A DNA stretch of 64,000 bases from a virus (Duplodnaviria; Caudoviricetes): IMG/VR virus record IMGVR_UViG_3300025078_000002, positions 10,830 to 74,829 of that record. One strand, 5' to 3'. A model generated the notes under the pieces. The model saw only the letters and a list, made by a program, of their open reading frames with translations, was not told the DNA's origin and made no database searches. Each line of letters starts with the position of its first letter. The first letter of the stretch is position 1. The translations under genes were made by a program, and so were the position numbers. This document shows, piece by piece, positions 1,599 to 21,449 of this stretch.

Positions 1599-1841
1599 AT
1601 GGAAAAGTATAGTTCATATAAGAGCGGTTTAAAAATAGGAGACTACGTTCATTACGAATACAATTGTATTTTTGCTTCTTTTGTTGAGAGAAGTTTGATT
1701 TTAGATAGAAAGCATCTTTTTACAAAAGAGACTAGATGGGGAGAACGAAGTTTTTTTGAATATTCTGTATATAACAATGGGAACGTAAAAAAAATAAGAA
1801 CACAAGATATGAGAATTATAAATCGTGAAAGGACAAGCTAA
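1599..1841 (+). CDS. Small hypothetical protein, possible KOW/SH3-like barrel
   Basis: LKIGDYVHY motif. Confidence 0.55.
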   Translation: MEKYSSYKSGLKIGDYVHYEYNCIFASFVERSLILDRKHLFTKETRWGERSFFEYSVYNNGNVKKIRTQDMRIINRERTS

Positions 1842-1842
1842 A

Positions 1843-2832
1843 ATGAGAATTGCAATAACTGGTGAAAAAGGTTTTATCGCTAGCAACTTATCAAATAAAA
1901 TTAATAAATTTAGTCATGAATTTGTATCGTTAGATGAAAGCAAATATTCAGAAGGCTATGAAACTACTGAGAGTGGTGAAGTATGTGTGTATAGTAATAG
2001 CATCGAAAAATGGTCACAGCTTCTTTCAGACTTAGATGTTGATGTTGTTATACATAATGCTGCTGTTGTAGGAACTGATGTTGTTGCGTTAAACCCGGAG
2101 CATGCAATATCAACTAATGTGTTAGGAACACACATTATAACTGAGGCAGCTAATAATACGAATACAAAGATTGTGTATATAGGGACAACAGTTATATATG
2201 ATACGTATCTTTATCAAGAAAATGAAATCTATGAGGACAGCACAATATATCCTAGAACAAATTATGCTGTTCAAAAATATGCTGGCGAAATGACTGTTAA
2301 GAATAATGCAAAAAACTGGTTAGTAGTTAGACCGTTATTTGCTTATGGTGGTGTAGGAGATATGAATTCACTTATATCAAAGTCATTATTTTGTATACAT
2401 AATAATATAAATAATATAGATATGTTTTTAAATCCTGAAAAGATAAAGGATTATATGCATGTTGAAGATTTTTGTAGTAGTGTTATGGATTTAATTGTAA
2501 ACGATATTAGTTATGAAGATTTCAACATTACAGCAGAGAATCCTTATAACACGTTAGAAATAGTTAGTTTAATTGAAGAAGTGACTAGTAGAAGTTTAGA
2601 GTCAGTTATTAAGTGGCACCCTGAAACTGATTACTTGGGAAACCATAGATTAAGTAACGATAAATTTCTAGACGTTATAGGGAAAAGTAGAACTAGAAGT
2701 CTTAAGGAAGGAATAAGACAATCTTGGGAGTCAATAAAAGAAATGGATAAATTTAATAAGTTTAATCCACTTAAACATTTAACAGAAGCAAAAGATAAAA
2801 ACATTGATTTGAAGATGTTTTTCCCTAAGTGA
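1843..2832 (+). CDS. NAD-dependent epimerase/dehydratase (extended SDR)
   Basis: MRIAITGEKGFIA Rossmann motif, VIHNAA, YxxxK (YAVQK), VVRP, KDYMHVEDF; start taken at ATG 1843 behind AAGGA. Confidence 0.9.
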   Translation: MRIAITGEKGFIASNLSNKINKFSHEFVSLDESKYSEGYETTESGEVCVYSNSIEKWSQLLSDLDVDVVIHNAAVVGTDVVALNPEHAISTNVLGTHIITEAANNTNTKIVYIGTTVIYDTYLYQENEIYEDSTIYPRTNYAVQKYAGEMTVKNNAKNWLVVRPLFAYGGVGDMNSLISKSLFCIHNNINNIDMFLNPEKIKDYMHVEDFCSSVMDLIVNDISYEDFNITAENPYNTLEIVSLIEEVTSRSLESVIKWHPETDYLGNHRLSNDKFLDVIGKSRTRSLKEGIRQSWESIKEMDKFNKFNPLKHLTEAKDKNIDLKMFFPK

Positions 2833-8005: not shown

Positions 8006-8923
8006 TTGTCTATTGATTTAATAACTCCACCAGACAGGTTTGTTTCTCTTCATTCTCACTCAACTTTTAGCACTTTTGATGGATTAGGTTACCCATCAGA
8101 TCATATAGACTTCGTACTTTCTGAATCACAAGGTATGGATGCCTGGGCGTTAACAGATCACGGTAATGGTAACGGTCTTGCTCACGCACACTCGCACGCT
8201 GTCAAAATGCAAAAGGCTGGGAAAAAGTTTAGACAAATCTACGGAGTCGAATTCTATTTTGTTCCCTCACTAGATCAATGGACTAATGACTACGCAGCTC
8301 ATAAACAAGCAATTAAAGATGCTAAAACAGCAGCAGCTGCTGAAAAGAAAAGTAAAGAAAAAATCATCATTGATGCTGATGATGAAAGCGGTGGTCTTGT
8401 TATAGAGGATGAAGATGAATCCAAAAAGATTGATATCCTTAAAGACGAATGGAAACGTCGCTATCACTTAGTCGTCACAGCAAGAAATAGAAAAGGCCTT
8501 AATAACCTATTCACTCTTGTAAAGAAGTCATATAAAGACGGCTTCTATAGATACCCACGCATTGACTTTAAAATGCTTAAAGAACACGGCGAAGGCTTAC
8601 ACGTAAATTCTGCATGTTTACACCCAGACACATCTTTACAGACGTCAGCTGGAAGTTTATCTATTAAAGAAGTTGTAGAAAGATTTAACAAAGGTGAAGA
8701 AATTCAAATTCTTTCTTACAATGAATATACTAGCAAAGCTGAGTTTAAAAAAATTATTTGGGGTGATAAAACACGAAAGAATGCTAAGCTATTAAGAATT
8801 AAAGACAAAGATGGGAATGAAATTAAACTTACTCCTGATCATCGTGTCCTTGTTAAGGTCAAAGGTTGGATTGATGCGAAAGATATTATAGCAGGAGACA
8901 AAATTATCAATATAAACCTCTAA
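8006..8923 (+). CDS. dnaE: DNA polymerase III alpha part 1 (PHP domain) fused to N-intein 1
   Basis: LHSHSTFSTFDG, ALTDHG, YGVEFY, HLVVTARN; extein ends VNSA before intein Cys1. Confidence 0.92.
   Translation: MSIDLITPPDRFVSLHSHSTFSTFDGLGYPSDHIDFVLSESQGMDAWALTDHGNGNGLAHAHSHAVKMQKAGKKFRQIYGVEFYFVPSLDQWTNDYAAHKQAIKDAKTAAAAEKKSKEKIIIDADDESGGLVIEDEDESKKIDILKDEWKRRYHLVVTARNRKGLNNLFTLVKKSYKDGFYRYPRIDFKMLKEHGEGLHVNSACLHPDTSLQTSAGSLSIKEVVERFNKGEEIQILSYNEYTSKAEFKKIIWGDKTRKNAKLLRIKDKDGNEIKLTPDHRVLVKVKGWIDAKDIIAGDKIININL
8615..8920 (+). mobile_element. Split intein 1, N-half (102 aa)
   Basis: CLHPDTSL block A, LTPDHRV block B, WIDAKDI..GD, then stop. Confidence 0.9.
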
Positions 8924-8951
8924 GACAATATACTTAGTATTGTCTAGGAGG
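8917..8951 (+). promoter_or_regulatory. SD-sequestering hairpin with ATACTTA in the loop
   Basis: AGACAATA (8923-30) pairs with TATTGTCT (8938-45), and CCTC with GAGG; ATACTTA at 8930-8936. Confidence 0.65.
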
Positions 8952-8959
8952 CAGTTATT

Positions 8960-9910
8960 ATGAAAACAAAAAAGATTAATATATGGAAAATTAGAGAAGA
9001 AATACTTTTTTCATACTACGAAAAAGAAGAAATACAAAGTTTTATTGATAAACTTTATTCTTTTTCGATGATTTACCAGATGATTTTACGAGACAATAAA
9101 AAATGCTTTAATGATTTAAACATATCATTACAGACTTTTTCAACACTTTTAAAAGATAAAATTGGCTTTATACTTCACCCAAATAATCAAAAAACTTCAA
9201 CAGCGTTTAGGAGCCAATTCAAATTTCCTAAAAATACTACAATGGAAGAAATTGAAAATTATTATTTGAAGTCTTCTTTAAAAGGTCAAAAAGGTACAGT
9301 AAAGTCGAGAAAAAAATCTGGGAAACCTTACAATGAAAAACAGACTTTAGACTTTTGGTTAAGCATTACAAACAACAAAGAAGAAGCAATACAAAGTTTA
9401 GAAAAGTATAAAAGATCTAATTCTCCTTTTTGTATTGAGTTTTGGACTAAGAAAGGATTAAGTGAAGAGAATGCAAATAAAATAATCTCTGAAAGAGCTG
9501 TCAAAGGTGCGATTAATGCTCTTAAAAAAACATCACAGCCTAAAACTGAAAAGCGAATTGAATCTTTACTCAAGAAAAATAACATTGAATATTCTACGCA
9601 ATATCGAATATCACTAGATAAAGATGAAACTGTGTATAATAAAAAGTGCTATGTATATGACTTTTATTTACCTACATTTAATTTAATTATTGAATGTCAC
9701 GGTCTTTATTGGCATGCTCATCCTTCGTTATACAACGAAAACTCTGTATTAAACTTTCCAAGTGGACAAGTAAAAGCAATAGACGTTTGGAATTCTGATT
9801 TGTATAAAATGAAAGTTGCAGAAAAAAGAAATTACCGCTATATGACTATATGGGAAAATGAAATTGACAATACAATTAGTTTAATTAGAGATCGTGTAAA
9901 TATTGATTGA
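8960..9910 (+). CDS. Vsr/DUF559-like homing endonuclease between the halves of intein 1
   Basis: KTEKRI...YDFYLPTFNLIIECHGLYWH...YMTIWENE. Confidence 0.8.
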   Translation: MKTKKINIWKIREEILFSYYEKEEIQSFIDKLYSFSMIYQMILRDNKKCFNDLNISLQTFSTLLKDKIGFILHPNNQKTSTAFRSQFKFPKNTTMEEIENYYLKSSLKGQKGTVKSRKKSGKPYNEKQTLDFWLSITNNKEEAIQSLEKYKRSNSPFCIEFWTKKGLSEENANKIISERAVKGAINALKKTSQPKTEKRIESLLKKNNIEYSTQYRISLDKDETVYNKKCYVYDFYLPTFNLIIECHGLYWHAHPSLYNENSVLNFPSGQVKAIDVWNSDLYKMKVAEKRNYRYMTIWENEIDNTISLIRDRVNID

Positions 9911-9940
9911 TTGTTTTAAAATATAAAAAAAGGAATAATT

Positions 9941-10069
9941 TTGAAAGAAATTCAAACAAAATATATTGAAGTTGATCTAATTGAAGAGATAGATGAAACT
10001 TCTGATGTTTATGATATCACTGTCGAAGATAATCATAATTTTTTTGCTAATAACATTTTAGTTCATAAC
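9941..10069 (+). mobile_element. Split intein 1, C-half (43 aa)
   Basis: Block F VYDITV, block G VHN followed by Cys+1. Confidence 0.9.
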
Positions 10070-11191
10070 TGTTTAGGCGGGATTTTTAGCAATAGAATAC
10101 TCCGCGGCGTTGCACATGATAAGTCACGTGACGAAATCCAAAAAGATCTTTTAAACCTTACAGACAGATTTACAGACGCAGTTGGCATTGAAAACTTCAA
10201 ACTAGAACTACAGTTCAATAAGCTAAACAAACAACACGTTGTTAATGACTACCTCATAGAACATCATAAACTAACTGGCATTCCTCTCATCTCAACAGCA
10301 GATTCTCATTACCCGAGCAACGATAAATGGCAAGCAAGAGAGCTATACAAGAAACTTGGCTGGCTCGGTAAGAAAGATAACTTAACTCTTCCAGCATTTG
10401 AAGATCTTAAATGTGAGCTGTATCCAAAAAATGCACAACAAATGTGGGATGAGTTCCTTGAAGGGTACAAAGAACACGACTTCTATAAAGGGAACGAGCA
10501 GCTCGTTAAAGAGTCAATAGAAAGAACACACGACATTGCCTGGAATGACTTTGAAGATACATGGATAGATGTAAGCGCAAAACTACCAACAATAACAATA
10601 CCTAACAAGACGCCCTTTAAACACCTATCAGACTTGGTTAAAAACGCTCTCGTTACTGAAGGGTTACATACTAATAAAGAGTACGTAGATAGAGCTAAAT
10701 ATGAATTGTCTGATATTAAGTATCTTGGACACGAAGCTTACTTTATTACAATGTATGAGATCTTTAAAAAAGCTGAAACAAAGACATTATTTGGAGCTGG
10801 AAGAGGCTCAGGTGCGGGGAGTTTAGTTAACTACTTGTTAGGCATTACACAACTCGATCCAATTCCTTATAACTTGCTTTGGAGTAGATTCTTAGGCAGA
10901 CATAGATGTCTAGACGAAGATACTTACGTTATATCTGAATATGGTAAAAAGAAGATTAAAGATGTTAGTGAAGGCGAAAAAGTACTAACGCATACAGGTC
11001 AGTATAGAAAAATTATTGATAAGGCTATAACACAACACGATATGGCTGTTGAAATAAAATTTAATGGTCGTAAAATTATTTGCTCACCTAATCATCGTTG
11101 GATTGTTAATCGTAATGGTAACGAAGTAGAAACAATGGCATGCCATTTACAAAAAGGTGACAAACTAATTCGATTAGCCAGAGATAAATAA
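9941..11191 (+). CDS. dnaE: C-intein 1 + DnaE part 2 + N-intein 2
   Basis: VYDITVEDNHNFFANNILVHN|CLGG; TADSHY; GAGRGSGAGSLVNYLLGITQLDP; ends with an intein N-half. Confidence 0.92.
   Translation: MKEIQTKYIEVDLIEEIDETSDVYDITVEDNHNFFANNILVHNCLGGIFSNRILRGVAHDKSRDEIQKDLLNLTDRFTDAVGIENFKLELQFNKLNKQHVVNDYLIEHHKLTGIPLISTADSHYPSNDKWQARELYKKLGWLGKKDNLTLPAFEDLKCELYPKNAQQMWDEFLEGYKEHDFYKGNEQLVKESIERTHDIAWNDFEDTWIDVSAKLPTITIPNKTPFKHLSDLVKNALVTEGLHTNKEYVDRAKYELSDIKYLGHEAYFITMYEIFKKAETKTLFGAGRGSGAGSLVNYLLGITQLDPIPYNLLWSRFLGRHRCLDEDTYVISEYGKKKIKDVSEGEKVLTHTGQYRKIIDKAITQHDMAVEIKFNGRKIICSPNHRWIVNRNGNEVETMACHLQKGDKLIRLARDK
10907..11188 (+). mobile_element. Split intein 2, N-half (94 aa)
   Basis: CLDEDTYV, CSPNHRW, LQKGD, then stop. 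Confidence 0.9.
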
Positions 11192-11200
11192 AGGAATAAA

Positions 11201-11341
11201 ATGAAAGACAATAATCTATACGAGATTGAGGAAATCAACTTTGTACATTACGATCAAGATATGATTGATATTGAAGTAGAAGGCGATCACACTTTCTACG
11301 TTTCAGAAGACCCCATGAATGAATTTATCTTGACACATAAT
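11201..11341 (+). mobile_element. Split intein 2, C-half (47 aa)
   Basis: DIEVEGDHTFY...THN followed by Thr+1. Confidence 0.88.
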
Positions 11342-11980
11342 ACAAGCTGGCCGGATATTGACACAGATGCTGGAGACCGAGATGAGCTGATCAACGCAGC
11401 AAAAGAGTTATATGGCGACGATGCTGTTATTCCAGTATCAAACTTTAACACGCTTAAGCTTAAATCACTTGTAAAAGACATTGCAAAGTTTTATGATATT
11501 CCATTTGACGAAGTCAATAAGGTAACTGGTCCTCTTCAAGATCAAGTTATGCAGAAAGCAATGGATAAAAATCAAGAAAAGTCTGTATTTGTTCTTAAGC
11601 ATGAAGACTGCATGAAATATTCACCAGAGTATAACGAATTTATGACAACATATCCAGAAGTTGCTGAACATGTAGATACTTTGTTTATGCAAAATAGAAG
11701 TTGTTTTACTAAAGATACACATATCTTGACTGATCGTGGTTATATGGACATTGAAGAACTTAATCCTGTGTCTGATGGAATTGTTTATATTGACAATGAA
11801 GGCAATCAAAAAGTTAATCACGACTATGAATTGCATTATATGGGTAAAAAAGAAGTGTTTGAAATTGAAACAGAATGTGGAAAAAAGATTAAACTTACTC
11901 CAGATCATGAAGTTATGACCCAAGATGGGTATAAAAAAGTATGTGAACTAAGTGAAAGTGATATATTGATTAAATTTTAA
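11201..11980 (+). CDS. dnaE: C-intein 2 + DnaE part 3 + N-intein 3
   Basis: IDIEVEGDHTF...THN|TSWPDIDTD (catalytic PDIDxD motif). Confidence 0.92.
   Translation: MKDNNLYEIEEINFVHYDQDMIDIEVEGDHTFYVSEDPMNEFILTHNTSWPDIDTDAGDRDELINAAKELYGDDAVIPVSNFNTLKLKSLVKDIAKFYDIPFDEVNKVTGPLQDQVMQKAMDKNQEKSVFVLKHEDCMKYSPEYNEFMTTYPEVAEHVDTLFMQNRSCFTKDTHILTDRGYMDIEELNPVSDGIVYIDNEGNQKVNHDYELHYMGKKEVFEIETECGKKIKLTPDHEVMTQDGYKKVCELSESDILIKF
11702..11977 (+). mobile_element. Split intein 3, N-half (92 aa)
   Basis: CFTKDTHILTDRG, LTPDHEV, GYKKVCEL, then stop. Confidence 0.9.
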
Positions 11981-11986
11981 CATTTG

Positions 11987-12018
11987 CACCGCTTGCATAT
12001 AGTTAATAGCAGGAGGTG
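11987..12018 (+). promoter_or_regulatory. SD-sequestering hairpin with ATAGTTA in the loop
   Basis: CACCGCTTGC pairs with GCAGGAGGTG (one mismatch, one GU) over AGGAGG; ATAGTTA at 11999-12005. Confidence 0.6.
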
Positions 12019-12026
12019 AAATTAAC

Positions 12027-13013
12027 ATGTTATGTAAAATTTGTAATAAAGAATATAAAAATCTTGGAAGACATGTAAGTGTTCATTATAAAAATGTAAA
12101 GTCTAAGTCAAAAAAAATGTTATATTTTCATGATATTTATAAAAACAAGTATGATATTGCTCGTGAGTATCTTGAAAGTAAAAAGTCTGCCAACCAAATA
12201 GCAAAAGAAGTCACACAACTATTTAATCTTTTTCCAGTTCAAAAAGGTGATATTTTAAACTTCTTAAAATATATGAAAGTTAAAAAAAGAACAACTTCTG
12301 AAGCTGGTAAAGAGTATTACAAAGAAAATCCTGTTTGGAATAAAGGTTTGACTAAATATGATCATGCAAGTATAGAGAAATATGCAGATAGTAGAACTGG
12401 AAAGAATAATCCAATATACTCACTTACTGAAAAAGAAAGAGAAGAAAAGATTTATTATTGGCGATTTAAGTCTGATGATGAACTCTTTGCAATAAGAGCT
12501 AAGATCGGAAAATCATTAAAGGAAGGTTATGCTTCAGGCAGAATAAAACATATATCTAAAACACATCCAGAAAAATTTAAAGAAATACACGCGAAAATGC
12601 TGTCTGGATATTTTGATGCATTAAATAATGGTACCATTAAAAGACAAAGTTACACATCTAGTTATGAAAAAAGAATAGCAAATATTCTAGAAGAGTTAGA
12701 CATAAGTTTTATACAGCAGAAGTCTTGTAATAAAAAATATAGGTACGACTTTTTCTTGAAAGACTTTAATCTTTATATTGAATTTAATGGTGACTACTGG
12801 CATGCTAATCCGAATCAGTTTAATGAAAATTATTATCATCCTCATAAAAAGATTTTAGCAAGAGAAATATGGGAGTATGATAATGCCAAGCGTGTAAATG
12901 TAATAAATAGTGGTTATAATTTTTTAACAATATGGGAATGTGACGTCAAAGAATTCAATAGACAGCACTTGAAGGAGTATATAATTGGAATTATTAAGAA
13001 TCAAAAGCATTAA
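12027..13013 (+). CDS. Vsr/DUF559-like homing endonuclease between the halves of intein 3
   Basis: N-terminal CKIC...H zinc finger, WNKG repeat, SSYEKRI...YDFFLKDFNLYIEFNGDYWH...TIWECD. Confidence 0.8.
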   Translation: MLCKICNKEYKNLGRHVSVHYKNVKSKSKKMLYFHDIYKNKYDIAREYLESKKSANQIAKEVTQLFNLFPVQKGDILNFLKYMKVKKRTTSEAGKEYYKENPVWNKGLTKYDHASIEKYADSRTGKNNPIYSLTEKEREEKIYYWRFKSDDELFAIRAKIGKSLKEGYASGRIKHISKTHPEKFKEIHAKMLSGYFDALNNGTIKRQSYTSSYEKRIANILEELDISFIQQKSCNKKYRYDFFLKDFNLYIEFNGDYWHANPNQFNENYYHPHKKILAREIWEYDNAKRVNVINSGYNFLTIWECDVKEFNRQHLKEYIIGIIKNQKH

Positions 13014-13122
13014 GAATACAAACACAATTCAACCCGTTTATGATATACATCATAATATTGATAATAAGAATTTTTATGATGAGCATCCCAATCTTATTGC
13101 AAACAATATTACAATATCAAAC
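12985..13122 (+). mobile_element. Split intein 3, C-half (46 aa)
   Basis: PVYDI...LIANNITISN followed by Cys+1; penultimate Ser instead of His. Confidence 0.85.
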
Positions 13123-14892
13123 TGTGGGCGTCACGCTGGGGGTGTTATTATAGCAGACGCAGACCTTCTTGAGCAATCGATGCCAATTGTTGGTGTTCGT
13201 GGAGAACTACAAACACCGTGGACTGAAGGTATGAACTTTAGGAATCTTGAAGACAACGGTTTTCTAAAGTTTGACTTCTTAGGTTTAACGCTTCTTAAAG
13301 ATGTAGAGAATTGCATTTATAGAATCCTAAGAAAAAGCGGAATGAAAAATCCTACATTCACAGATGCAAGAGCATTCTTTGATAAGCATTTAAACTGTAG
13401 GTTTGTCAAACAGGATGACCCTAAAGTTTGGGAACATGTGTATAAGGATGGTCACTTCGTTGGCATATTCCAGTTCACAAATCAGGGTGCTAGACAGTTT
13501 TCAATGGATGCATCGCCTGTAAGTATACAGGAGTTAGCAACAATTACTGCGATATATCGCCCTGGACCGCTTAAAGCAAATGTGCACAAGAAATATGTTA
13601 AGGCAAAAAACAATGCTAATGATATTGTGTACGATCATCCTATCATAGAAGAAGTACTTGGATATACTTACGGCTACTTTTGCTTTCAAGAGCAATTCAT
13701 GTTGATGGCACAAAAGCTTGCTGGGTTTTCACCGGGTGAGAGTGATAAGTTACGAAAGACGCTTGTAAAGAAATCACTAGATACTTTGCATTCTAAAGGA
13801 TCAGAAAAGGCAATTGCTAGAGAGAAGTTTATTAAAGGTGCCAAAGAGCTCAATGACATTCCTGAGAGTATTTCTTCGAAGCTCTGGCAAGACATAGAAG
13901 GTTTCGCAGTTTATGGCTTCAATCTTTCCCATGCAGTTGCATATGCTATTGGGTCGTATTATGCGGCATGGCTACATACACATCACGAGACTGAGTGGAT
14001 GGCAGCAATATTGCAATCTGAGAATGGTAATCCTAAAGGAATGTCAAAAGCCATTTCAGAGATTAAGTCATTTGGATATGAAATTGCTGCAATAGATATA
14101 AACCACTCTGAAGCTGAATGGGAATATTCTGATGTGTTGAAAGCTTTTGTGCCGCCGTTGACATCGCTTAAAGGAGTAGGTGATAAAGCTGTTGAAGAAG
14201 TATTTGAAAATAGACCATATAAAAACTTATCAGATCTATTTTACAATGAAGTAGGAGAATGGAGACATTCCAAGCTGAACAAAACAGCTTTTTCGTCATT
14301 AGCAAAGATGGAAGCATTTAAGTCTCTCCAGGAGTTTCAAGATGATGTATTAGATAATCATAAGCAAATGTATGATTTAATCTTGGATAACTATAATCTA
14401 CTCAAGAAAGGTAGATATGGAATGACAAAAACTGCCGTAAAAAGAGCGTTAAAGAATGATGAAGAGATTGTGCCTATTGTTGATGAGTTGATTGCGAAGT
14501 ATAAGGTTGTTAGTGATTGGAGTAGGAATGAAAAGATTAAGAACTATTTTGAACTCAGTAATGACGCAAGTGACGACCTATTGTTTCCACCTAGATTATT
14601 GAACAAGTTAAAACAGAAAGAAATCTCCAGTGTGTTTGATATACCTTCTGGAGATCGTGGTATTGGATGGTTTACAGTGACTGAGGTTATTCGTAAGACG
14701 ACTAAGAACGGGAAGGCGTTTATGAGGTGGAAGTGTGTAGACTCAGACAATCGTAGCGGATGGTTACGAGTTTGGGGGTCATTAGATGGCGAGGTTGAGT
14801 TTAGTACGTGGCTTGCTGATGTGAAGAATGATGCTGGATGGGGAATGTCTACGAATCTAGGTAAGCTTAAAAAGATTAACGCTTTTGATTAA
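12985..14892 (+). CDS. dnaE: C-intein 3 + DnaE part 4 (fingers/HhH/OB)
   Basis: VYDI...ISN|CGRHAGGVI; KFDFLGL; GIFQF; YRPGP; FQEQFM; YGFNLSHA. Confidence 0.93.
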   Translation: MELLRIKSIKNTNTIQPVYDIHHNIDNKNFYDEHPNLIANNITISNCGRHAGGVIIADADLLEQSMPIVGVRGELQTPWTEGMNFRNLEDNGFLKFDFLGLTLLKDVENCIYRILRKSGMKNPTFTDARAFFDKHLNCRFVKQDDPKVWEHVYKDGHFVGIFQFTNQGARQFSMDASPVSIQELATITAIYRPGPLKANVHKKYVKAKNNANDIVYDHPIIEEVLGYTYGYFCFQEQFMLMAQKLAGFSPGESDKLRKTLVKKSLDTLHSKGSEKAIAREKFIKGAKELNDIPESISSKLWQDIEGFAVYGFNLSHAVAYAIGSYYAAWLHTHHETEWMAAILQSENGNPKGMSKAISEIKSFGYEIAAIDINHSEAEWEYSDVLKAFVPPLTSLKGVGDKAVEEVFENRPYKNLSDLFYNEVGEWRHSKLNKTAFSSLAKMEAFKSLQEFQDDVLDNHKQMYDLILDNYNLLKKGRYGMTKTAVKRALKNDEEIVPIVDELIAKYKVVSDWSRNEKIKNYFELSNDASDDLLFPPRLLNKLKQKEISSVFDIPSGDRGIGWFTVTEVIRKTTKNGKAFMRWKCVDSDNRSGWLRVWGSLDGEVEFSTWLADVKNDAGWGMSTNLGKLKKINAFD

Positions 14893-16939: not shown

Positions 16940-17830
16940 ATGAGATTTTTTAATATAAACATTGAAGGTCCTGACTGTAGTGGTAAAACTACGTTATACA
17001 ATAGACTCCATAAAGAAACAAGCTTTAAGTATAACATACAAGACAGAAGTTGTATGTCTATGTTTGTTTACGCAAAGATGTATGGAAGAGAAGACACTTC
17101 ACTTTGGTTTGACAAAGTTTTAGATGATCTAAAACGATTGGATACACTTTATATTGTGTTACTCCCGTCTGAAAGTGTTGTGCTTGATAGATTGCGCGTT
17201 AGAGGGGATGATTTTCAAGATGAAATAAGTGTTTTAGATGTAAGAAATCATTTTAGAAATATATCAAAAATGGGTTTTGGTTCTTTTCCAAATGTGTTAG
17301 TATTAGAAGGAGACGACTTAGAGAAGAACGTTGAAGTTGCATTGTCATTTATTGACGCATTGAATGATATGCCCGGGCAGGAATTGATAAAGTCTTTAGT
17401 ATTTAATAGTGGCAGAAATGAGTTGATTGATGTTGAGTGTAAAGAAGTAGTTGATAGAAGTAGTCTAGACTTGACAGTTTTAGATTTTCCTGAAGAAAAA
17501 GAATATTTTGAAAAAATTGAGTTTGAGTTTTTTAATAAAATATTTAGAGAGTTTGTGGGTTTAAACGAGCATAATAAATCACAAAAGCATGATAGTAGAA
17601 GATTTATATACACTAGTGATAGTTGTATATCGATGATACATTTTTTGTGGCGTCAAAATAAATTAAATGTGTCGGCGTCTCTAAGGTCTTCAAATGTATC
17701 GAAAACTTTGTGGGCTGATTATGAATTTCTTAAGATACTTAGTGTAAGAGCAGCCAAAGAGATGTCTTTACCTGAAGACATTGAGATAAATTTAACAGTC
17801 AATATTAGGTCTGCACATATTGTCCCTTAG
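16940..17830 (+). CDS. dNMP (thymidylate) kinase-like domain fused to a truncated thymidylate-synthase-superfamily domain
   Basis: IEGPDCSGKTT P-loop and QDRS; C-terminal SRR...SCISMIHF...LRSSN...D. Confidence 0.7.
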   Translation: MRFFNINIEGPDCSGKTTLYNRLHKETSFKYNIQDRSCMSMFVYAKMYGREDTSLWFDKVLDDLKRLDTLYIVLLPSESVVLDRLRVRGDDFQDEISVLDVRNHFRNISKMGFGSFPNVLVLEGDDLEKNVEVALSFIDALNDMPGQELIKSLVFNSGRNELIDVECKEVVDRSSLDLTVLDFPEEKEYFEKIEFEFFNKIFREFVGLNEHNKSQKHDSRRFIYTSDSCISMIHFLWRQNKLNVSASLRSSNVSKTLWADYEFLKILSVRAAKEMSLPEDIEINLTVNIRSAHIVP

Positions 17831-17839
17831 GAGAAGAAA

Positions 17840-18403
17840 GTGAATCCCAGTTTTATAGTGTATACAGGTCCTATGTTTGGTTCGAAGACTACGAGATTGA
17901 TGGGTGAAATTGATCGTGCTACATATCGAGGTAGAAAAGTTATAGCGTTTAAAGCTAAAAAAGATAAGCGATATAGTGTTGACAAGATAAGCACACATAG
18001 TGGAGGAAGATTTCCTGCTTTTTGTATTGAGAATGCTGAGGAGATTTTTAATTATTTAGATGAGCAAGATTGTAATTCTAATACTTTGGTCGCTGTTGAT
18101 GAAGGGTTTATGATTGAGGGGATTGATAATGTGCTTATAAGTCTTTATAGAAAGGGAGTATCAGTTGTGATAGCATCGATACAGTTAGATGCGAATGAGA
18201 TTCCTTTTGAAAGTATAAAGAACATATTACCGTGGGCTACAAAAATTGAAATATGTCCGGCTGTTTGTACAGATTGTGATCAAGATGCGTATTTTACAGA
18301 GGCAATGTTTGATATTCATAATGCAACAGCAGAAGAAAAAGTTGGTTCTCACGGAATGTATGAGCCAAGATGTGCAAAACATTATTCTACTTTTAAAGAA
18401 TAG
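17840..18403 (+). CDS. tdk: Thymidine kinase
   Basis: GPMFGSKTT, VDEG, CTDC...YEPRC zinc site. Confidence 0.92.
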   Translation: MNPSFIVYTGPMFGSKTTRLMGEIDRATYRGRKVIAFKAKKDKRYSVDKISTHSGGRFPAFCIENAEEIFNYLDEQDCNSNTLVAVDEGFMIEGIDNVLISLYRKGVSVVIASIQLDANEIPFESIKNILPWATKIEICPAVCTDCDQDAYFTEAMFDIHNATAEEKVGSHGMYEPRCAKHYSTFKE

Positions 18404-19558: not shown

Positions 19559-20446
19559 TTGAAAAAAATAAACGTTCCTTTTGTTCCAAGTAATTTAGGA
19601 ACACGTTTCAAATCATCAGACGTTTGGTTTGTTTATCAAAGCAAAAAGTTTGTTAAGTCAATAAGACCTAAAAAGTATGAAGATATTTATAATGGAAAAG
19701 CATATCAGAAATATGAAAAGTGTTATAGGGAGCATATAAAGTATCATCCTAAAGAAATTTCGTTTGTAAAAGCAAGTTTATTTAATGCGACTGATATTGT
19801 TACACCTGAGCAGATTTTAATGAATCAAGGTTATACGTATTATTTTAAGTTGTTGCCGTCGCAAATTGAAAAGTGTCTATTTGCGGTTACGATTGATGGT
19901 GAGTGTGTATTGGTAAAAGGAGTGCAGGGTTTTGCAGCTGCGTATAAAGTTTGGAGTGAAAGAGAATTTAAGGAAGAAGACGAAAGTATATTAACAGATA
20001 AAGCTGTTGATAATATAGAAGTTATAATTCCTTTTAAGGTTAAGCCTCAATATTATATACCTGAAGTTAAGAAAAGAATGTTTTATCACGGTAGTAAAGA
20101 AAGGTTTAAATCTTTAAACAAGTTTTCTTATGTGACGCCTTACAAAGAAGATGCAATTAAGTTTGCAATACCTTGGTCTACTAGTGAGTTGCTTATGGGA
20201 GACAATGAAATGTTTAATTTAGGTAGACCGCCGCAAAGGCTTTTGTTTAAAAGGGGAGTAGACATAAATGATAGTAAAGTTTATCTATATTCTATAAAGG
20301 GTATTGATACAATAAGTTCTGGATCAAATACAGGAAAGATATTTCCTTGGAATAGAATAACTTTGAAAGAAGCGTCTGAAGAAGGTAAAAGTCTTAAGCT
20401 TGAAAAGAAAATAATGTCTTGGAAAAAAGAATTAAACACTTACTAA
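19559..20446 (+). CDS. Two-domain protein with C-terminal Arr/ART-like domain
   Basis: FYHGS...YVTP..EDAIKFA...YLY...KIFPWNR. Confidence 0.5.
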   Translation: MKKINVPFVPSNLGTRFKSSDVWFVYQSKKFVKSIRPKKYEDIYNGKAYQKYEKCYREHIKYHPKEISFVKASLFNATDIVTPEQILMNQGYTYYFKLLPSQIEKCLFAVTIDGECVLVKGVQGFAAAYKVWSEREFKEEDESILTDKAVDNIEVIIPFKVKPQYYIPEVKKRMFYHGSKERFKSLNKFSYVTPYKEDAIKFAIPWSTSELLMGDNEMFNLGRPPQRLLFKRGVDINDSKVYLYSIKGIDTISSGSNTGKIFPWNRITLKEASEEGKSLKLEKKIMSWKKELNTY

Positions 20447-21010
20447 GATTGGGTTAAATTGTATTTGTCTAGTAGGATTATATTTGTTGTTTTGATCAAT
20501 ATAATATTTAGCAGCATTTAAGTTTTGTTCATTGTCTTCCCAGAAATTAACTTCTTTAGCATAACTATATGAATTAAGTAAGCGTTCAATGATTTCTGTT
20601 TTATATTGAGATGTACTTCCTGAGAATCTTAATGGTTTATAGTATAGACAGTTTTGGTCAAACTTCAATCCTTTTAGACGTAGTAACTTATTAGTAACAT
20701 AAACAATCTCATCAGTATCACTTCTTGCAGTACATAGTACTGTTAATGAGTTTCTATCAATCATTGATTTTTTTACAGCGTTAATAGTATTCTCAATCCA
20801 TAAAGAGTCTAAGTTATCATCGTAATAAGCTTGATTTAAAGATTCTTCAGAATTCCACCAGTAACCTGATTCTGTTGTATTCCAATGATCAGGTGCAGAC
20901 ATTGATTTAAACAACGTCATATCAAAATCAAATATATTGATAACTTTTATAAATTCTTTATTTTCTTTTAAGATTGTTTTGATATAATTTTCAAGTAGTA
21001 AAATAGACAT
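20432..21010 (-). CDS. HAD-superfamily phosphatase-like protein with leader
   Basis: IFDFDMTLF (motif I), LCTAR (II), FWEDN (IV); start moved to MSILLLENYIKTILKEN. Confidence 0.75.
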   Translation of the reverse strand: MSILLLENYIKTILKENKEFIKVINIFDFDMTLFKSMSAPDHWNTTESGYWWNSEESLNQAYYDDNLDSLWIENTINAVKKSMIDRNSLTVLCTARSDTDEIVYVTNKLLRLKGLKFDQNCLYYKPLRFSGSTSQYKTEIIERLLNSYSYAKEVNFWEDNEQNLNAAKYYIDQNNKYNPTRQIQFNPILVSV

Positions 21011-21029
21011 ATAGCCTCGGAGTAATTTA

Positions 21030-21449
21030 ATGTTAGATATAAATAGGCCTTCTTGGGACAAAATCTGGATGAAGATGGCAGAAACAATTGCGCAGCGTAG
21101 TCATCACCCTACATTTAAGGTAGGAGCAATCATAGTAACGTCAGATAATACTCAAGTGCTTTCTTTAGGGTATAATGGTAATGCCAAGGGAATGTCAAAC
21201 GTACCTCAATCTGATGTACCTGGTTGTAGTGGTTTGCTGCACGCTGAGATAAATGCTTTATTAAAGTTAGATTTCAATAATCCAAAAGACAAAGTTATGT
21301 ATCTGACGTTAAGTCCTTGTAAAAATTGTGCTATGGCTGTAATTAATAGTGGTGTAAAAGAAGTTGTATATAAAGAAGAGTATAGAGATAAGACAGGTAT
21401 TAATTTATTGAAAGGTTCTGGGATAAAAATTAGAAAGATTAATATATAG
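21030..21449 (+). CDS. dCMP deaminase-family protein
   Basis: KVGAII, GYNG, HAEINAL, PCKNC. Confidence 0.9.
   Translation: MLDINRPSWDKIWMKMAETIAQRSHHPTFKVGAIIVTSDNTQVLSLGYNGNAKGMSNVPQSDVPGCSGLLHAEINALLKLDFNNPKDKVMYLTLSPCKNCAMAVINSGVKEVVYKEEYRDKTGINLLKGSGIKIRKINI

What the first reader, a model, noticed from the sequence alone, without database searches (positions are those of the whole stretch)
16940..17830. Kinase fused to a minimal thymidylate-synthase-like domain with non-canonical specificity residues
Seen: the TS-like half is only about 150 aa, keeps the catalytic Cys (SCIS) and reads RSSNVSKTLWAD where E. coli ThyA has RSCDVFLGLPFN. Established: Asp at the Asn177 position marks dCMP-specific enzymes such as T4 gp42. 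Inference: this makes and phosphorylates a modified pyrimidine nucleotide for DNA hypermodification. The Asp169-to-Asn change and missing folate-binding parts suggest chemistry other than ordinary methylation.
Basis: partly seen in the sequence, partly recalled or inferred. Interest (0 to 1): 0.7.

Follow-up and report, generated by a model that had tools for sequence, protein, structure and literature searches.

The report
Kinase fused to mini thymidylate-synthase-like enzyme
A large marine phage fuses a nucleotide kinase to a stripped-down, 150-residue thymidylate-synthase-like domain. Its active site matches the recently found enzymes that make 5-hydroxy-dCMP for sugar-coated phage DNA, so ocean phages may use this DNA chemistry, though that is untested.

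Summary
ORF 16940-17830 (296 aa) has two domains:
- Residues 1-145 are a YorR/thymidylate-kinase-type P-loop kinase.
- Residues 146-296 are a miniature thymidylate-synthase (TS) fold that Pfam misses.

The AlphaFold model is very confident (pLDDT 97.5). In an unbiased search of 48,161 PDB chains, only TS-superfamily chains reach Z>=8. The best is the flavin-dependent dCMP hydroxylase AfhB (Z 11.8); the next fold scores 5.5.

Profile alignment maps the active site onto E. coli ThyA: R220/R221=R126/R127, C229=C146, R249/S250=R166/S167, N252=D169, D260=N177, H293=H207. Lee et al. 2026 (PMC13326640) propose D169N plus N177D as the signature of 5-hydroxy-dCMP synthases. Their three phage clusters each place a YorR/TMK-like kinase beside the synthase; here the two are fused.

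Best reading (about 0.45): a dCMP 5-hydroxylase plus dNMP kinase.

Caveats:
- About 70 residues of the usual cofactor-side scaffold are missing.
- N252 flips to Asp at least 17 times across the wider family.
- A sister lineage has a dead active site but an intact kinase.
- No glycosyltransferase was found in the 21-46% complete genomes.
- The gene sits in a TK/dCMP-deaminase cassette, in a genome that also encodes ThyX.

Verdict: a new variant of a known kind.

The parts
16940..17830 (+). Whole ORF, 296 aa: kinase plus TS-like fusion. An SD-like AAGAAAG lies about 9 nt upstream, and the TK gene starts 10 nt after the stop.
   Evidence: AF2 model pLDDT 97.5, pTM 0.92.
16940..17374 (+). N-terminal P-loop dNMP kinase domain (aa 1-145), YorR/thymidylate-kinase type.
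   Evidence: Profile vs PDB: YorR 2axp E 6e-17, Aquifex TMK E 1e-6. VIA Z 13.0-13.7 to dNK, YorR and TMK. phrog_761 thymidylate kinase E 2e-14.
16964..16993 (+). P-loop EGPDCSGKTT (aa 9-18).
   Evidence: G10, D12, G15 and K16 are kept in >=68 of 71 homologues.
17042..17050 (+). DRS motif (aa 35-37), the counterpart of the TMK DR(Y/F/H) NMP-binding motif.
   Evidence: D35 in 66/71 and R36 in 70/71. YorR alignment.
17189..17209 (+). Arg-rich LID segment RLRVRGD (aa 84-90).
   Evidence: R84 70/71, R88 63/71, G89 64/71, D90 66/71.
17375..17827 (+). Miniature thymidylate-synthase-fold domain (aa 146-296).
   Evidence: Folded alone: pLDDT 96.8. Foldseek top hits 9iqu/9iqc. VIA wide: 9iqc Z 11.8, ThyAs 10.4-11.2, MilA 9.6, T4 dCH 9.4, next fold 5.5.
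17594..17602 (+). S219-R220-R221, the equivalent of the ThyA S125-R126-R127 phosphate clamp, which in TS is supplied by the partner subunit of the dimer.
   Evidence: hhalign. R220 in 68/71 and R221 in 65/71; 119/119 in close relatives.
17621..17632 (+). SCIS with Cys229, the equivalent of the catalytic Cys146.
   Evidence: hhalign. C229 in 67/71 and 119/119.
17684..17719 (+). RSSNVSKTLWAD (aa 249-260): R249/S250 = R166/S167, N252 = D169 (the D169N signature), D260 = N177 (cytosine specificity).
   Evidence: hhalign. N252 in 41/71 with D in 23/71; D260 in 70/71. All are invariant in the 119 closest sequences.
17810..17818 (+). SAH motif with His293 (= His207). The protein ends 3 residues later.
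   Evidence: Aligned with VSAHVF of RB69 gp48, ASAHIF of PTm1 ORF167 and TSAHIY of phiM9 td.2. ThyA has GDTHLY plus 57 more residues; T4-type dCH has GSLHVY plus 30.
17840..18403 (+). Thymidine kinase, directly downstream; the conserved partner gene in all relatives examined.
   Evidence: PF00265 E 1e-32. Synteny.
21030..21449 (+). dCMP deaminase, a conserved member of the same cassette.
   Evidence: PF00383 E 3e-23. Synteny in 7 related loci.

Best explanation
The gene encodes a bifunctional pyrimidine-nucleotide enzyme.

Proposed steps in the C-terminal 150-residue TS-fold domain, which probably acts as a homodimer like all TS-family enzymes:
- It binds dCMP. The phosphate is held by R249/S250 and by R220'/R221' from the partner subunit, the cytosine N3/N4 by Asp260, and the 3'-OH by His293.
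- Cys229 adds to C6, which makes C5 nucleophilic.
- C5 then attacks an electrophile. Given the Asn252 (D169N) signature and the closest relatives, this is most likely the distal oxygen of a flavin hydroperoxide, giving 5-hydroxy-dCMP after the Cys is eliminated.

The fused YorR/TMK-type kinase then phosphorylates the product to the diphosphate, for conversion to the triphosphate and use by the phage DnaE polymerase.

Shown: the fold, the residue equivalences, conservation, the fusion, the synteny, and the precedent of neighbouring kinase and synthase genes in known 5-hydroxycytosine phages.

Inferred: the substrate, the cofactor, the product, the order of the two reactions, dimerisation, and entry of the product into DNA.
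For: 1. Fold. Only TS-superfamily chains score Z>=8, and the flavin-dependent dCMP hydroxylase AfhB ranks first in Foldseek and VIA searches of the PDB for both models. In the viral BFVD library, Foldseek only and whole model only, the top hit is Acj9 Gp42, an RB69-gp48-like protein.
2. Sequence profiles. hhalign gives 97% and E 4e-11 against 27 RB69-gp48-like 5hodCMP synthases. Against single sequences: PTm1 ORF167 (N-type) 96%, RB69 gp48 93%, T4-type dCH 84%, E. coli ThyA 79%.
3. Active site. Cys, the Arg pair, Arg-Ser, Asp at the N177 position and Asn at the D169 position are all present. Lee et al. show D169N-type homologues from several phage families and metaviromes all make 5hodC, using O2 and a flavin (PMC13326640).
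4. Shared derived traits with that clade: the SAH[IV] motif and an end to the protein soon after it.
5. Gene-fusion logic. DLP3 gp78 (best PDB hit YorR), RB69 gp45 and RL38J1 gp214 are YorR/TMK-like kinases encoded beside the 5hodCMP synthase. Our kinase's best PDB hit is also YorR, and it aligns to RB69 gp45 at 89.5%.
6. Purifying selection. In the 118 nearest cluster representatives, every catalytic residue including N252 is invariant, and the TS-like domain (80% mean identity) is at least as conserved as the kinase (78%).
Against: - The domain is about 70-90 residues shorter than any characterised hydroxylase. The block that is invariant in RB69-gp48-like enzymes (about residues 64-120), which could form the cofactor site, has no confident counterpart here.
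- Asn252 alternates with Asp, His or Glu across the wider family, with at least 17 changes on the tree, so the D169N rule may not transfer to this family.
- Sister-lineage orthologues in the same syntenic slot (P0123, P0135, P0237) have lost Cys, Arg and His but keep all kinase motifs.
- No GT1, GT2 or GT1_4 glycosyltransferase, MazG dCTPase or flavin reductase was found in five related records, though these are only 21-46% complete.
- It is the only TMK-like gene seen. It sits in a TK/dCMP-deaminase cassette of a genome that also encodes ThyX about 18-20 kb upstream, which fits plain dTTP supply.
- Structural Z scores for AfhB (11.8) and ordinary ThyA (11.2) are effectively tied.
Confidence: 0.45

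Rival explanations
1. The protein is simply the phage's thymidylate (dNMP) kinase. On this reading the TS-like domain performs no C5 chemistry. It serves as a dimerisation scaffold and/or a dCMP-sensing regulatory module left over from an ancestral TS-like enzyme.
For: It is the only TMK-like gene in five related partial genomes. The DnaE-fusion-TK-dCMP deaminase cassette is conserved, and ThyX lies upstream, together forming a complete dTTP pathway. Orthologues in the same slot have dead TS-like sites but intact kinases. The cofactor-side scaffold is missing.
Against: The catalytic Cys is kept in 67/71 diverse homologues and in 119/119 close ones, together with the Arg pair, Arg-Ser, Asp260 and His293. 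A binding-only module would not need the Cys nucleophile. The TS-like domain is as conserved as the kinase.
Confidence: 0.2
2. The TS-like domain is active on dCMP but uses chemistry other than flavin hydroxylation or folate transfer. Examples are Cys-adduct-assisted hydrolytic deamination to dUMP, or capture of a different electrophile, possibly with help from a partner protein.
For: The nucleotide-binding and Cys-activation residues are kept while both known cofactor-binding regions are largely absent. N/D/H/E variation at position 252 suggests this residue does not grip a fixed cofactor. A divergent ThyX-like flavoprotein co-occurs with the fusion in two phage groups.
Against: There is no precedent in the TS superfamily. 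A canonical zinc dCMP deaminase is already in the cassette. The closest relatives by profile and fold are hydroxylases.
Confidence: 0.15
3. It is a classical folate-dependent dCMP hydroxymethylase or methylase, like T4 gp42, fused to a kinase.
For: It has the TS fold, the catalytic Cys and the dCMP-type Asp260. T4-type dCH aligns at 84% probability, and T4 dCH scores Z 9.4. Some family members carry Asp at position 252.
Against: This protein and all 118 close relatives have Asn252. The protein ends 3 residues after His293, whereas ThyA and dCH carry 57 and 30 further residues. In ThyA, by textbook knowledge, that tail closes over the folate. About 70 residues between helix A and the SRR strand are missing, including the region that holds W80/W83 in ThyA (for ranges; the residue roles are established knowledge). 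There is no PF00303 match.
Confidence: 0.08

Closest known systems
Flavin-dependent 5-hydroxy-dCMP synthases of the TS superfamily: RB69 gp48, DLP3 gp80, RL38J1 gp216, and HY126 AfhB (PDB 9iqu/9iqc). Sources: Lee et al. NAR 2026, PMC13326640; He et al. Nat Chem Biol 2026, which I could not read.
   Same: TS fold, catalytic Cys, the SRR and RS phosphate clamps, Asn at D169, Asp at N177, the SAH[IV] motif, a truncated C-terminus, and association with a YorR/TMK-like kinase. These are the best profile and structure matches.
   Different: Only about 150 aa against 217-242 aa. The conserved N-terminal half and the loop before the Cys (which carries the L143D/E position) are deleted or condensed. 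There is no PF00303 hit, whereas all 120 listed RB69-gp48 homologues have one. It is covalently fused to the kinase. No glycosyltransferase or arabinose genes were seen. The activity is untested.
T4 gp42 dCMP hydroxymethylase and MilA CMP hydroxymethylase (PDB 1b5d, 5b6e)
   Same: Cytosine-specific Asp at the N177 position, the catalytic Cys, and the TS fold (Z 9.4 and 9.6).
   Different: Those enzymes keep Asp169 and the folate-binding C-terminal part. This protein has Asn252 and lacks both.
ThyA thymidylate synthase (E. coli, 264 aa)
   Same: Core beta-sheet and helix J. Equivalents of R126/R127, C146, R166/S167 and H207 are present. Z 10.4-11.2.
   Different: N177 is Asp and D169 is Asn. 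About 70 internal residues and the last 54 or more residues are missing. The phage makes dTMP with ThyX instead.
YorR of the B. subtilis SPbeta prophage (PDB 2axp/3kb2), together with the YorR/TMK-like kinases DLP3 gp78 and RB69 gp45
   Same: The N-terminal domain is the same small kinase type: profile E 6e-17 and Z 13.6. hhalign to RB69 gp45 gives 89.5%.
   Different: Those kinases are free-standing proteins. The substrate of each, as of this domain, has not been determined.

Membership tests
Thymidylate synthase / dCMP hydroxymethylase superfamily (fold level) | TS alpha/beta fold | tested here: met
   Domain model pLDDT 96.8. The 7 chains with Z>=8 out of 48,161 are all TS superfamily, with 131-138 of 152 residues aligned; the next fold scores Z 5.5.
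Thymidylate synthase / dCMP hydroxymethylase superfamily (fold level) | Catalytic Cys plus the phosphate-binding Arg pair and Arg-Ser | tested here: met
   C229=C146, R220/R221=R126/R127 and R249/S250=R166/S167 by hhalign. Conserved in 65-69 of 71 homologues.
Thymidylate synthase / dCMP hydroxymethylase superfamily (fold level) | Match to Pfam PF00303 | tested here: not met
   No hit at E<=1 for this protein and none in 71 homologues at E<=0.1. No hit in the genome by six-frame search.
Folate-dependent TS / dCMP hydroxymethylase (ThyA, T4 gp42) | Asp169 and the folate-binding elements (the W80/W83 region and the C-terminal segment after His207) | tested here: not met
   Asn252 sits at the D169 position. 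The protein ends 3 aa after His293, against 57 more residues in ThyA and 30 in dCH. The domain covers ThyA 2-210 with only 138 residues aligned.
5-hydroxy-dCMP synthase (flavin-dependent dCMP hydroxylase) | D169N signature, proposed as diagnostic in PMC13326640 | tested here: met
   N252 is present in this protein and in 119/119 of the closest sequences. Family-wide the counts are N 41, D 23, H 3, E 2 of 71, with at least 17 changes on the tree.
5-hydroxy-dCMP synthase (flavin-dependent dCMP hydroxylase) | N177D (dCMP specificity) and the catalytic Cys | tested here: met
   D260 in 70/71 and C229 in 67/71.
5-hydroxy-dCMP synthase (flavin-dependent dCMP hydroxylase) | Acidic residue at the L143 position | tested here: inconclusive
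   The 11-16 residue loop before the Cys is deleted. Asp227, two residues before the Cys, is D/N/E in most members, but its equivalence to L143 could not be established.
5-hydroxy-dCMP synthase (flavin-dependent dCMP hydroxylase) | Full-size enzyme with the conserved N-terminal half (invariant block at about residues 64-120 of RB69 gp48) | tested here: not met
   Only residues 192-296 align with confidence. 69 residues stand in place of about 132.
5-hydroxy-dCMP synthase (flavin-dependent dCMP hydroxylase) | Flavin binding and O2-dependent formation of 5hodCMP | not testable with these tools
   This needs the purified protein or an in vivo LC-MS assay.
5-hydroxy-dCMP synthase (flavin-dependent dCMP hydroxylase) | Genomic company: a YorR/TMK-like kinase nearby | tested here: met
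   The kinase is fused in the same chain. The precedents are DLP3 gp78, RB69 gp45 and RL38J1 gp214.
5-hydroxy-dCMP synthase (flavin-dependent dCMP hydroxylase) | Genomic company: DNA glycosyltransferases, NDP-sugar genes and a dCTPase | tested here: inconclusive
   PF00534, PF00535, PF13692 and PF03819 are absent from five records that are 21-46% complete. An NAD-dependent sugar epimerase lies at 1825-2832.
Thymidylate kinase / YorR-type dNMP kinase | P-loop, DR motif, Arg-rich LID and the kinase fold | tested here: met
   Motifs are conserved. YorR E 6e-17, TMK E 1e-6. Z 13.0-13.7.
Thymidylate kinase / YorR-type dNMP kinase | Pfam PF02223 above the gathering score | tested here: not met
   14.6 bits against a cut-off of 27 for this protein. 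33 of 71 homologues match at E<=0.1, best 2.9e-8.

The most novel reading that the evidence does not exclude
A 150-residue TS-fold core is a self-sufficient minimal catalytic unit for C5 modification of dCMP. It would receive its oxidant or cofactor in trans, from the fused kinase domain's surface or from the co-occurring divergent ThyX-like flavoprotein. If so, an abundant group of large marine phages would carry 5-hydroxycytosine-based (or other new C5-modified) DNA, made by a two-component system not yet described.
Probability: 0.15. Interest if true: 0.85.

Novelty: new variant of a known kind. Interest (0 to 1): 0.62.

Why it matters
TS-superfamily enzymes are the entry points to almost all known pyrimidine hypermodifications of phage DNA. 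The flavin-dependent hydroxylating branch was described only in 2025-2026, and only in full-size enzymes, mostly from phages of enterobacteria, Acinetobacter and Rhizobium plus a few metavirome sequences.

This family is invisible to Pfam. It is common in marine metagenomes: 123 clusters at 50% identity, and more than 330 at 90%. It is about 40% smaller than ThyA, and it is welded to the kinase that known systems encode next door.

If it is active, three things follow:
- It defines the minimal TS catalytic core.
- It shows how the fold can work without its usual cofactor-binding scaffold.
- It predicts modified cytosine in ocean phage DNA, which would affect restriction and CRISPR evasion and how such DNA sequences.

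If it is inactive, it is a clear case of an enzyme domain recycled as a scaffold for a kinase.

Tried and rejected
- Pfam and PHROGs on the whole protein find only the kinase.
- tblastn against 50,697 phage records gives no hit at E<=1e-3. At E<=10 there are only weak hits to the PTm1/PTm5 TS-like gene.
- The search for related loci with the alignment failed, so the single protein was used.
- The He et al. 2026 AfhB paper is not held, so flavin-contact residues could not be mapped. Model coordinates are not exposed, so the domain interface and the cofactor pocket could not be inspected.
- Apparent stand-alone short forms (P0160, P0163) turned out to sit on very short contigs. P0160 has an in-frame stop between the kinase tail and the TS-like part. 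P0163 has a disrupted kinase N-terminus. A free-standing form is therefore not established.
- A search for PTm1 ORF167 relatives, intended to bridge the two families, gave only 2 proteins.
- The ML tree did not resolve where the family attaches within the TS superfamily. The basal forks are open and the stem branch is 1.59 long, so no sister-group claim is made.
- Two literature searches for a described kinase-TS fusion found nothing relevant.
- I considered the deoxynucleoside-kinase reading of the N-domain (dC to dCMP, upstream of the TS-like step). TMK-type signals are stronger: the EGPD P-loop, 33 versus 17 of 71 Pfam hits, and PDB E 1e-6 versus 0.015. It is still not excluded.

Full report
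**What is there**

The window belongs to a 74.8 kb IMG/VR virus record estimated to be about 30% complete. It has about 31% G+C. The record encodes dUTPase, ribonucleotide reductase, two ThyX-like genes, a DnaE polymerase interrupted by inteins, GroEL and a sigma factor.

The ORF at 16940-17830 (+) is real, 296 aa long, and starts at an ATG behind an SD-like AAGAAAG. More than 330 clusters at 90% identity resemble it. All come from metagenomes, many from Tara, some on contigs of 244-278 kb. An exhaustive search with the C-terminal 152 residues alone finds 123 representatives at the 50% identity level. Most are about 300 aa with the match at the C-terminus, so the fusion is the normal form.

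**The two domains**

AlphaFold2 with 71 homologues gives pLDDT 97.5 and pTM 0.92 for the whole chain.

Residues 1-145 are a small P-loop kinase:
- The best PDB sequence match is YorR of prophage SPbeta (E 6e-17), followed by thymidylate kinases.
- Structural Z scores are 13.0-13.7 to deoxynucleoside kinase, YorR and TMK.
- The P-loop EGPDxSGKTT, the DR(S) motif and the RxxxRGD lid are conserved.

Residues 146-296 have no Pfam match but clearly have a TS fold:
- Folded alone (pLDDT 96.8), the domain was compared with 48,161 PDB representatives without any Foldseek pre-filter.
- Only seven chains reach Z>=8, and all belong to the TS superfamily: AfhB 9iqc 11.8, four ThyA-type thymidylate synthases (one the TS half of a bifunctional DHFR-TS) 10.4-11.2, MilA 9.6, and T4 dCMP hydroxymethylase 9.4. 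The next fold scores 5.5.
- The whole domain maps onto ThyA residues about 2-210, with 138 residues aligned.

**Residue equivalences**

hhalign of the family profile against E. coli ThyA (taken from NC_000913) gives these equivalences:
- S219-R220-R221 match S125-R126-R127.
- C229 matches C146.
- R249-S250 match R166-S167.
- N252 matches D169.
- D260 matches N177.

His293 aligns with the conserved His of the SAH motif in RB69 gp48, phiM9 td.2 and PTm1 ORF167. I equate that His with ThyA His207 by motif position (ThyA GDTHLY), because the ThyA alignment itself stops before it.

**Which branch of the superfamily**

Lee et al. 2026 (PMC13326640) showed that RB69 gp48, DLP3 gp80, RL38J1 gp216 and nine further D169N-type homologues make 5-hydroxy-dCMP from dCMP. 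The oxygen comes from O2 and a flavin is loosely bound. They propose D169N as the predictive signature and N177D as the dCMP determinant. The AfhB structures (9iqu, 9iqc) are of this type.

This protein carries both substitutions, and AfhB is its first structural hit in the PDB searches with both models. In BFVD the first hit is Acj9 Gp42, which belongs to the RB69-gp48 family.

Profile-profile comparison with 27 gp48-like proteins gives 97% and E 4e-11. Against single sequences the order is as follows:

| Template | Type | hhalign probability |
|---|---|---|
| PTm1 ORF167 | N-type | 96% |
| RB69 gp48 | N-type | 93% |
| T4-type dCH | folate-dependent | 84% |
| E. coli ThyA | folate-dependent | 79% |
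| phiM9 td.2 | N-type | 68% |

Two more traits are shared with the N-type clade only. One is the SAH[IV] motif, where ThyA has GDTHLY and dCH has GSLHVY. The other is termination of the protein shortly after that motif.

The three known 5-hydroxycytosine clusters each encode a YorR/TMK-like kinase next to the synthase: DLP3 gp78, whose best PDB hit is YorR; RB69 gp45; and RL38J1 gp214. The present gene is the fused version of that pair.

**Evidence that it is under selection**

In the 118 closest cluster representatives (>=68% identity), every candidate catalytic residue is invariant: E186, Y189, E204, R220, R221, C229, R238, R249, S250, N252, D260 and H293. The TS-like domain is slightly more conserved than the kinase, at 80% versus 78% mean identity.

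**Evidence that calls for caution**

1. Missing scaffold. The domain is 70-90 residues shorter than any characterised relative. Only residues 192-296 align with confidence, and the block of invariant residues at about 64-120 of gp48-like enzymes has no clear counterpart. Where a flavin would sit is unknown. I could neither read He et al. nor inspect coordinates.
2. Labile position 252. Across the 71 diverse homologues it reads N 41, D 23, H 3, E 2, with at least 17 changes on the tree. In this family the position is not fixed.
3. Dead-site orthologues. In the window's own starred clade, three representatives have lost the active site while keeping every kinase motif:
   - P0123: C229N, R249T, S250K, N252K, H293Y.
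   - P0135: Cys to Asn, RR to KK, R249N.
   - P0237: similarly degenerate.

   P0123 occurs on six contigs and occupies the same slot between DnaE and TK.
4. Ordinary context. The conserved order is DnaE, fusion, thymidine kinase, a variable stretch, then dCMP deaminase, with ThyX upstream. No other TMK-like gene was found, so the kinase may simply be the phage's dTMP kinase.
5. No accessory genes. No GT1, GT2 or GT1_4 glycosyltransferase, MazG, flavin reductase or PF00303 gene was found in five related records. These are only 21-46% complete, so absence proves little.
6. Weak placement. Z scores for AfhB and ThyA are within 1 unit of each other, and the ML tree leaves the attachment point of the family open.

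**Mechanism I commit to**

The protein is a bifunctional enzyme. The TS-like domain activates dCMP through Cys229 and installs a C5 substituent, most likely hydroxyl through a flavin hydroperoxide. The fused kinase then phosphorylates the product. Confidence is about 0.45 for this specific version, and about 0.65 for 'some Cys-dependent C5 chemistry on dCMP coupled to the kinase'.

The order of the two steps is inferred. A kinase acting first (dC to dCMP) is less likely, because the TMK-type signals are stronger than the dNK-type ones, but it is not excluded.

The rivals are:
- A kinase with a vestigial TS-like scaffold or sensor domain (0.2).
- Other, cofactor-independent or partner-dependent chemistry (0.15).
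- A classical folate-dependent hydroxymethylase (0.08).

**Novelty**

The kind of system is known: a TS-superfamily pyrimidine modifier plus a dNMP kinase. The variant is new in three respects: it is miniaturised, it is undetectable by Pfam, and it is fused to the kinase. I found no fused counterpart among the BFVD viral models (best TMq 0.40) and no description in two literature searches.

Noticed in passing
G000:C1:8027-8764 and 9847-10806 (L004; just upstream of the window): There are two ThyX-like genes. The first is canonical (RHRTWSYNEVSRRY, 177 bits). The second is a divergent 319-aa paralogue (RHRAGSFAAQCTGDR, 71 bits). ThyX2 is conserved at 75-83% identity in three related records. 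ThyX2-like genes also lie near fusion homologues: in L036, and in an unrelated PolB-type phage contig (L035) 1 kb upstream of P0224. It may be a functional partner of the fusion.
   Followed up: partly
L030:6001-6891 (P0123); also P0135 and P0237: Orthologues of the fusion in a sister lineage have lost Cys229, Arg249/Ser250 and His293 but keep all kinase motifs and the same synteny. This looks like a natural 'dead-enzyme' series.
   Followed up: yes
window 55279-58899: Three adjacent purine genes: a GMP reductase/IMPDH-family gene (E 7e-95), an adenylosuccinate synthetase-like gene (E 6e-96) and an adenylosuccinate-lyase-like gene (E 1e-25). Together they could convert GMP to AMP for this 31% G+C genome. 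Whether the PurA-like gene is instead a PurZ-type enzyme (2-aminoadenine pathway) was not checked.
   Followed up: no
window 1825-2832: An NAD-dependent sugar epimerase/dehydratase (PF01370, E 2e-25), conserved at 47-67% identity in relatives (L009, L015, L036). It is a possible source of an NDP-sugar donor, and the only sugar-nucleotide gene seen.
   Followed up: partly
window 8006-14892: The DnaE polymerase is spread over several ORFs, with PHP, pol3-alpha and finger domains flanked by intein-splicing domain halves. Relatives L006, L009 and L030 have an uninterrupted 1191-aa DnaE. This was already reported by another agent of the scan.
   Followed up: partly
window 20432-21061 (-): A HAD_SAK_1-type phosphatase (E 9e-19) sits between TK and dCMP deaminase and is conserved in several relatives. 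It may be a nucleotidase in the same pyrimidine cassette.
   Followed up: no
L035:9288-10909: In a PolB-type phage contig, a SAM-dependent methyltransferase gene overlaps the start of the fusion homologue P0224. Nearby are an NT5C deoxynucleotidase and a PolB fused to a uracil-DNA-glycosylase domain.
   Followed up: no
L033:3-566: On a 696-bp contig, a homologue has an in-frame stop codon exactly between the kinase tail and the TS-like domain (P0160). It could be a split two-gene form, a pseudogene or a sequencing error; this is undecided.
   Followed up: partly
L022:2530-3207 (Tenacibaculum phage PTm1 ORF167): This 225-aa TS homologue from a cultured marine jumbo phage has RSNN (the D169N type), Asp at the N177 position, and ends at ASAHIFEKDL. 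By the Lee et al. rule it is a predicted 5hodCMP synthase, and it is the best single-sequence match to the window's domain. It sits next to a guanylyltransferase and a histidine phosphatase.
   Followed up: partly
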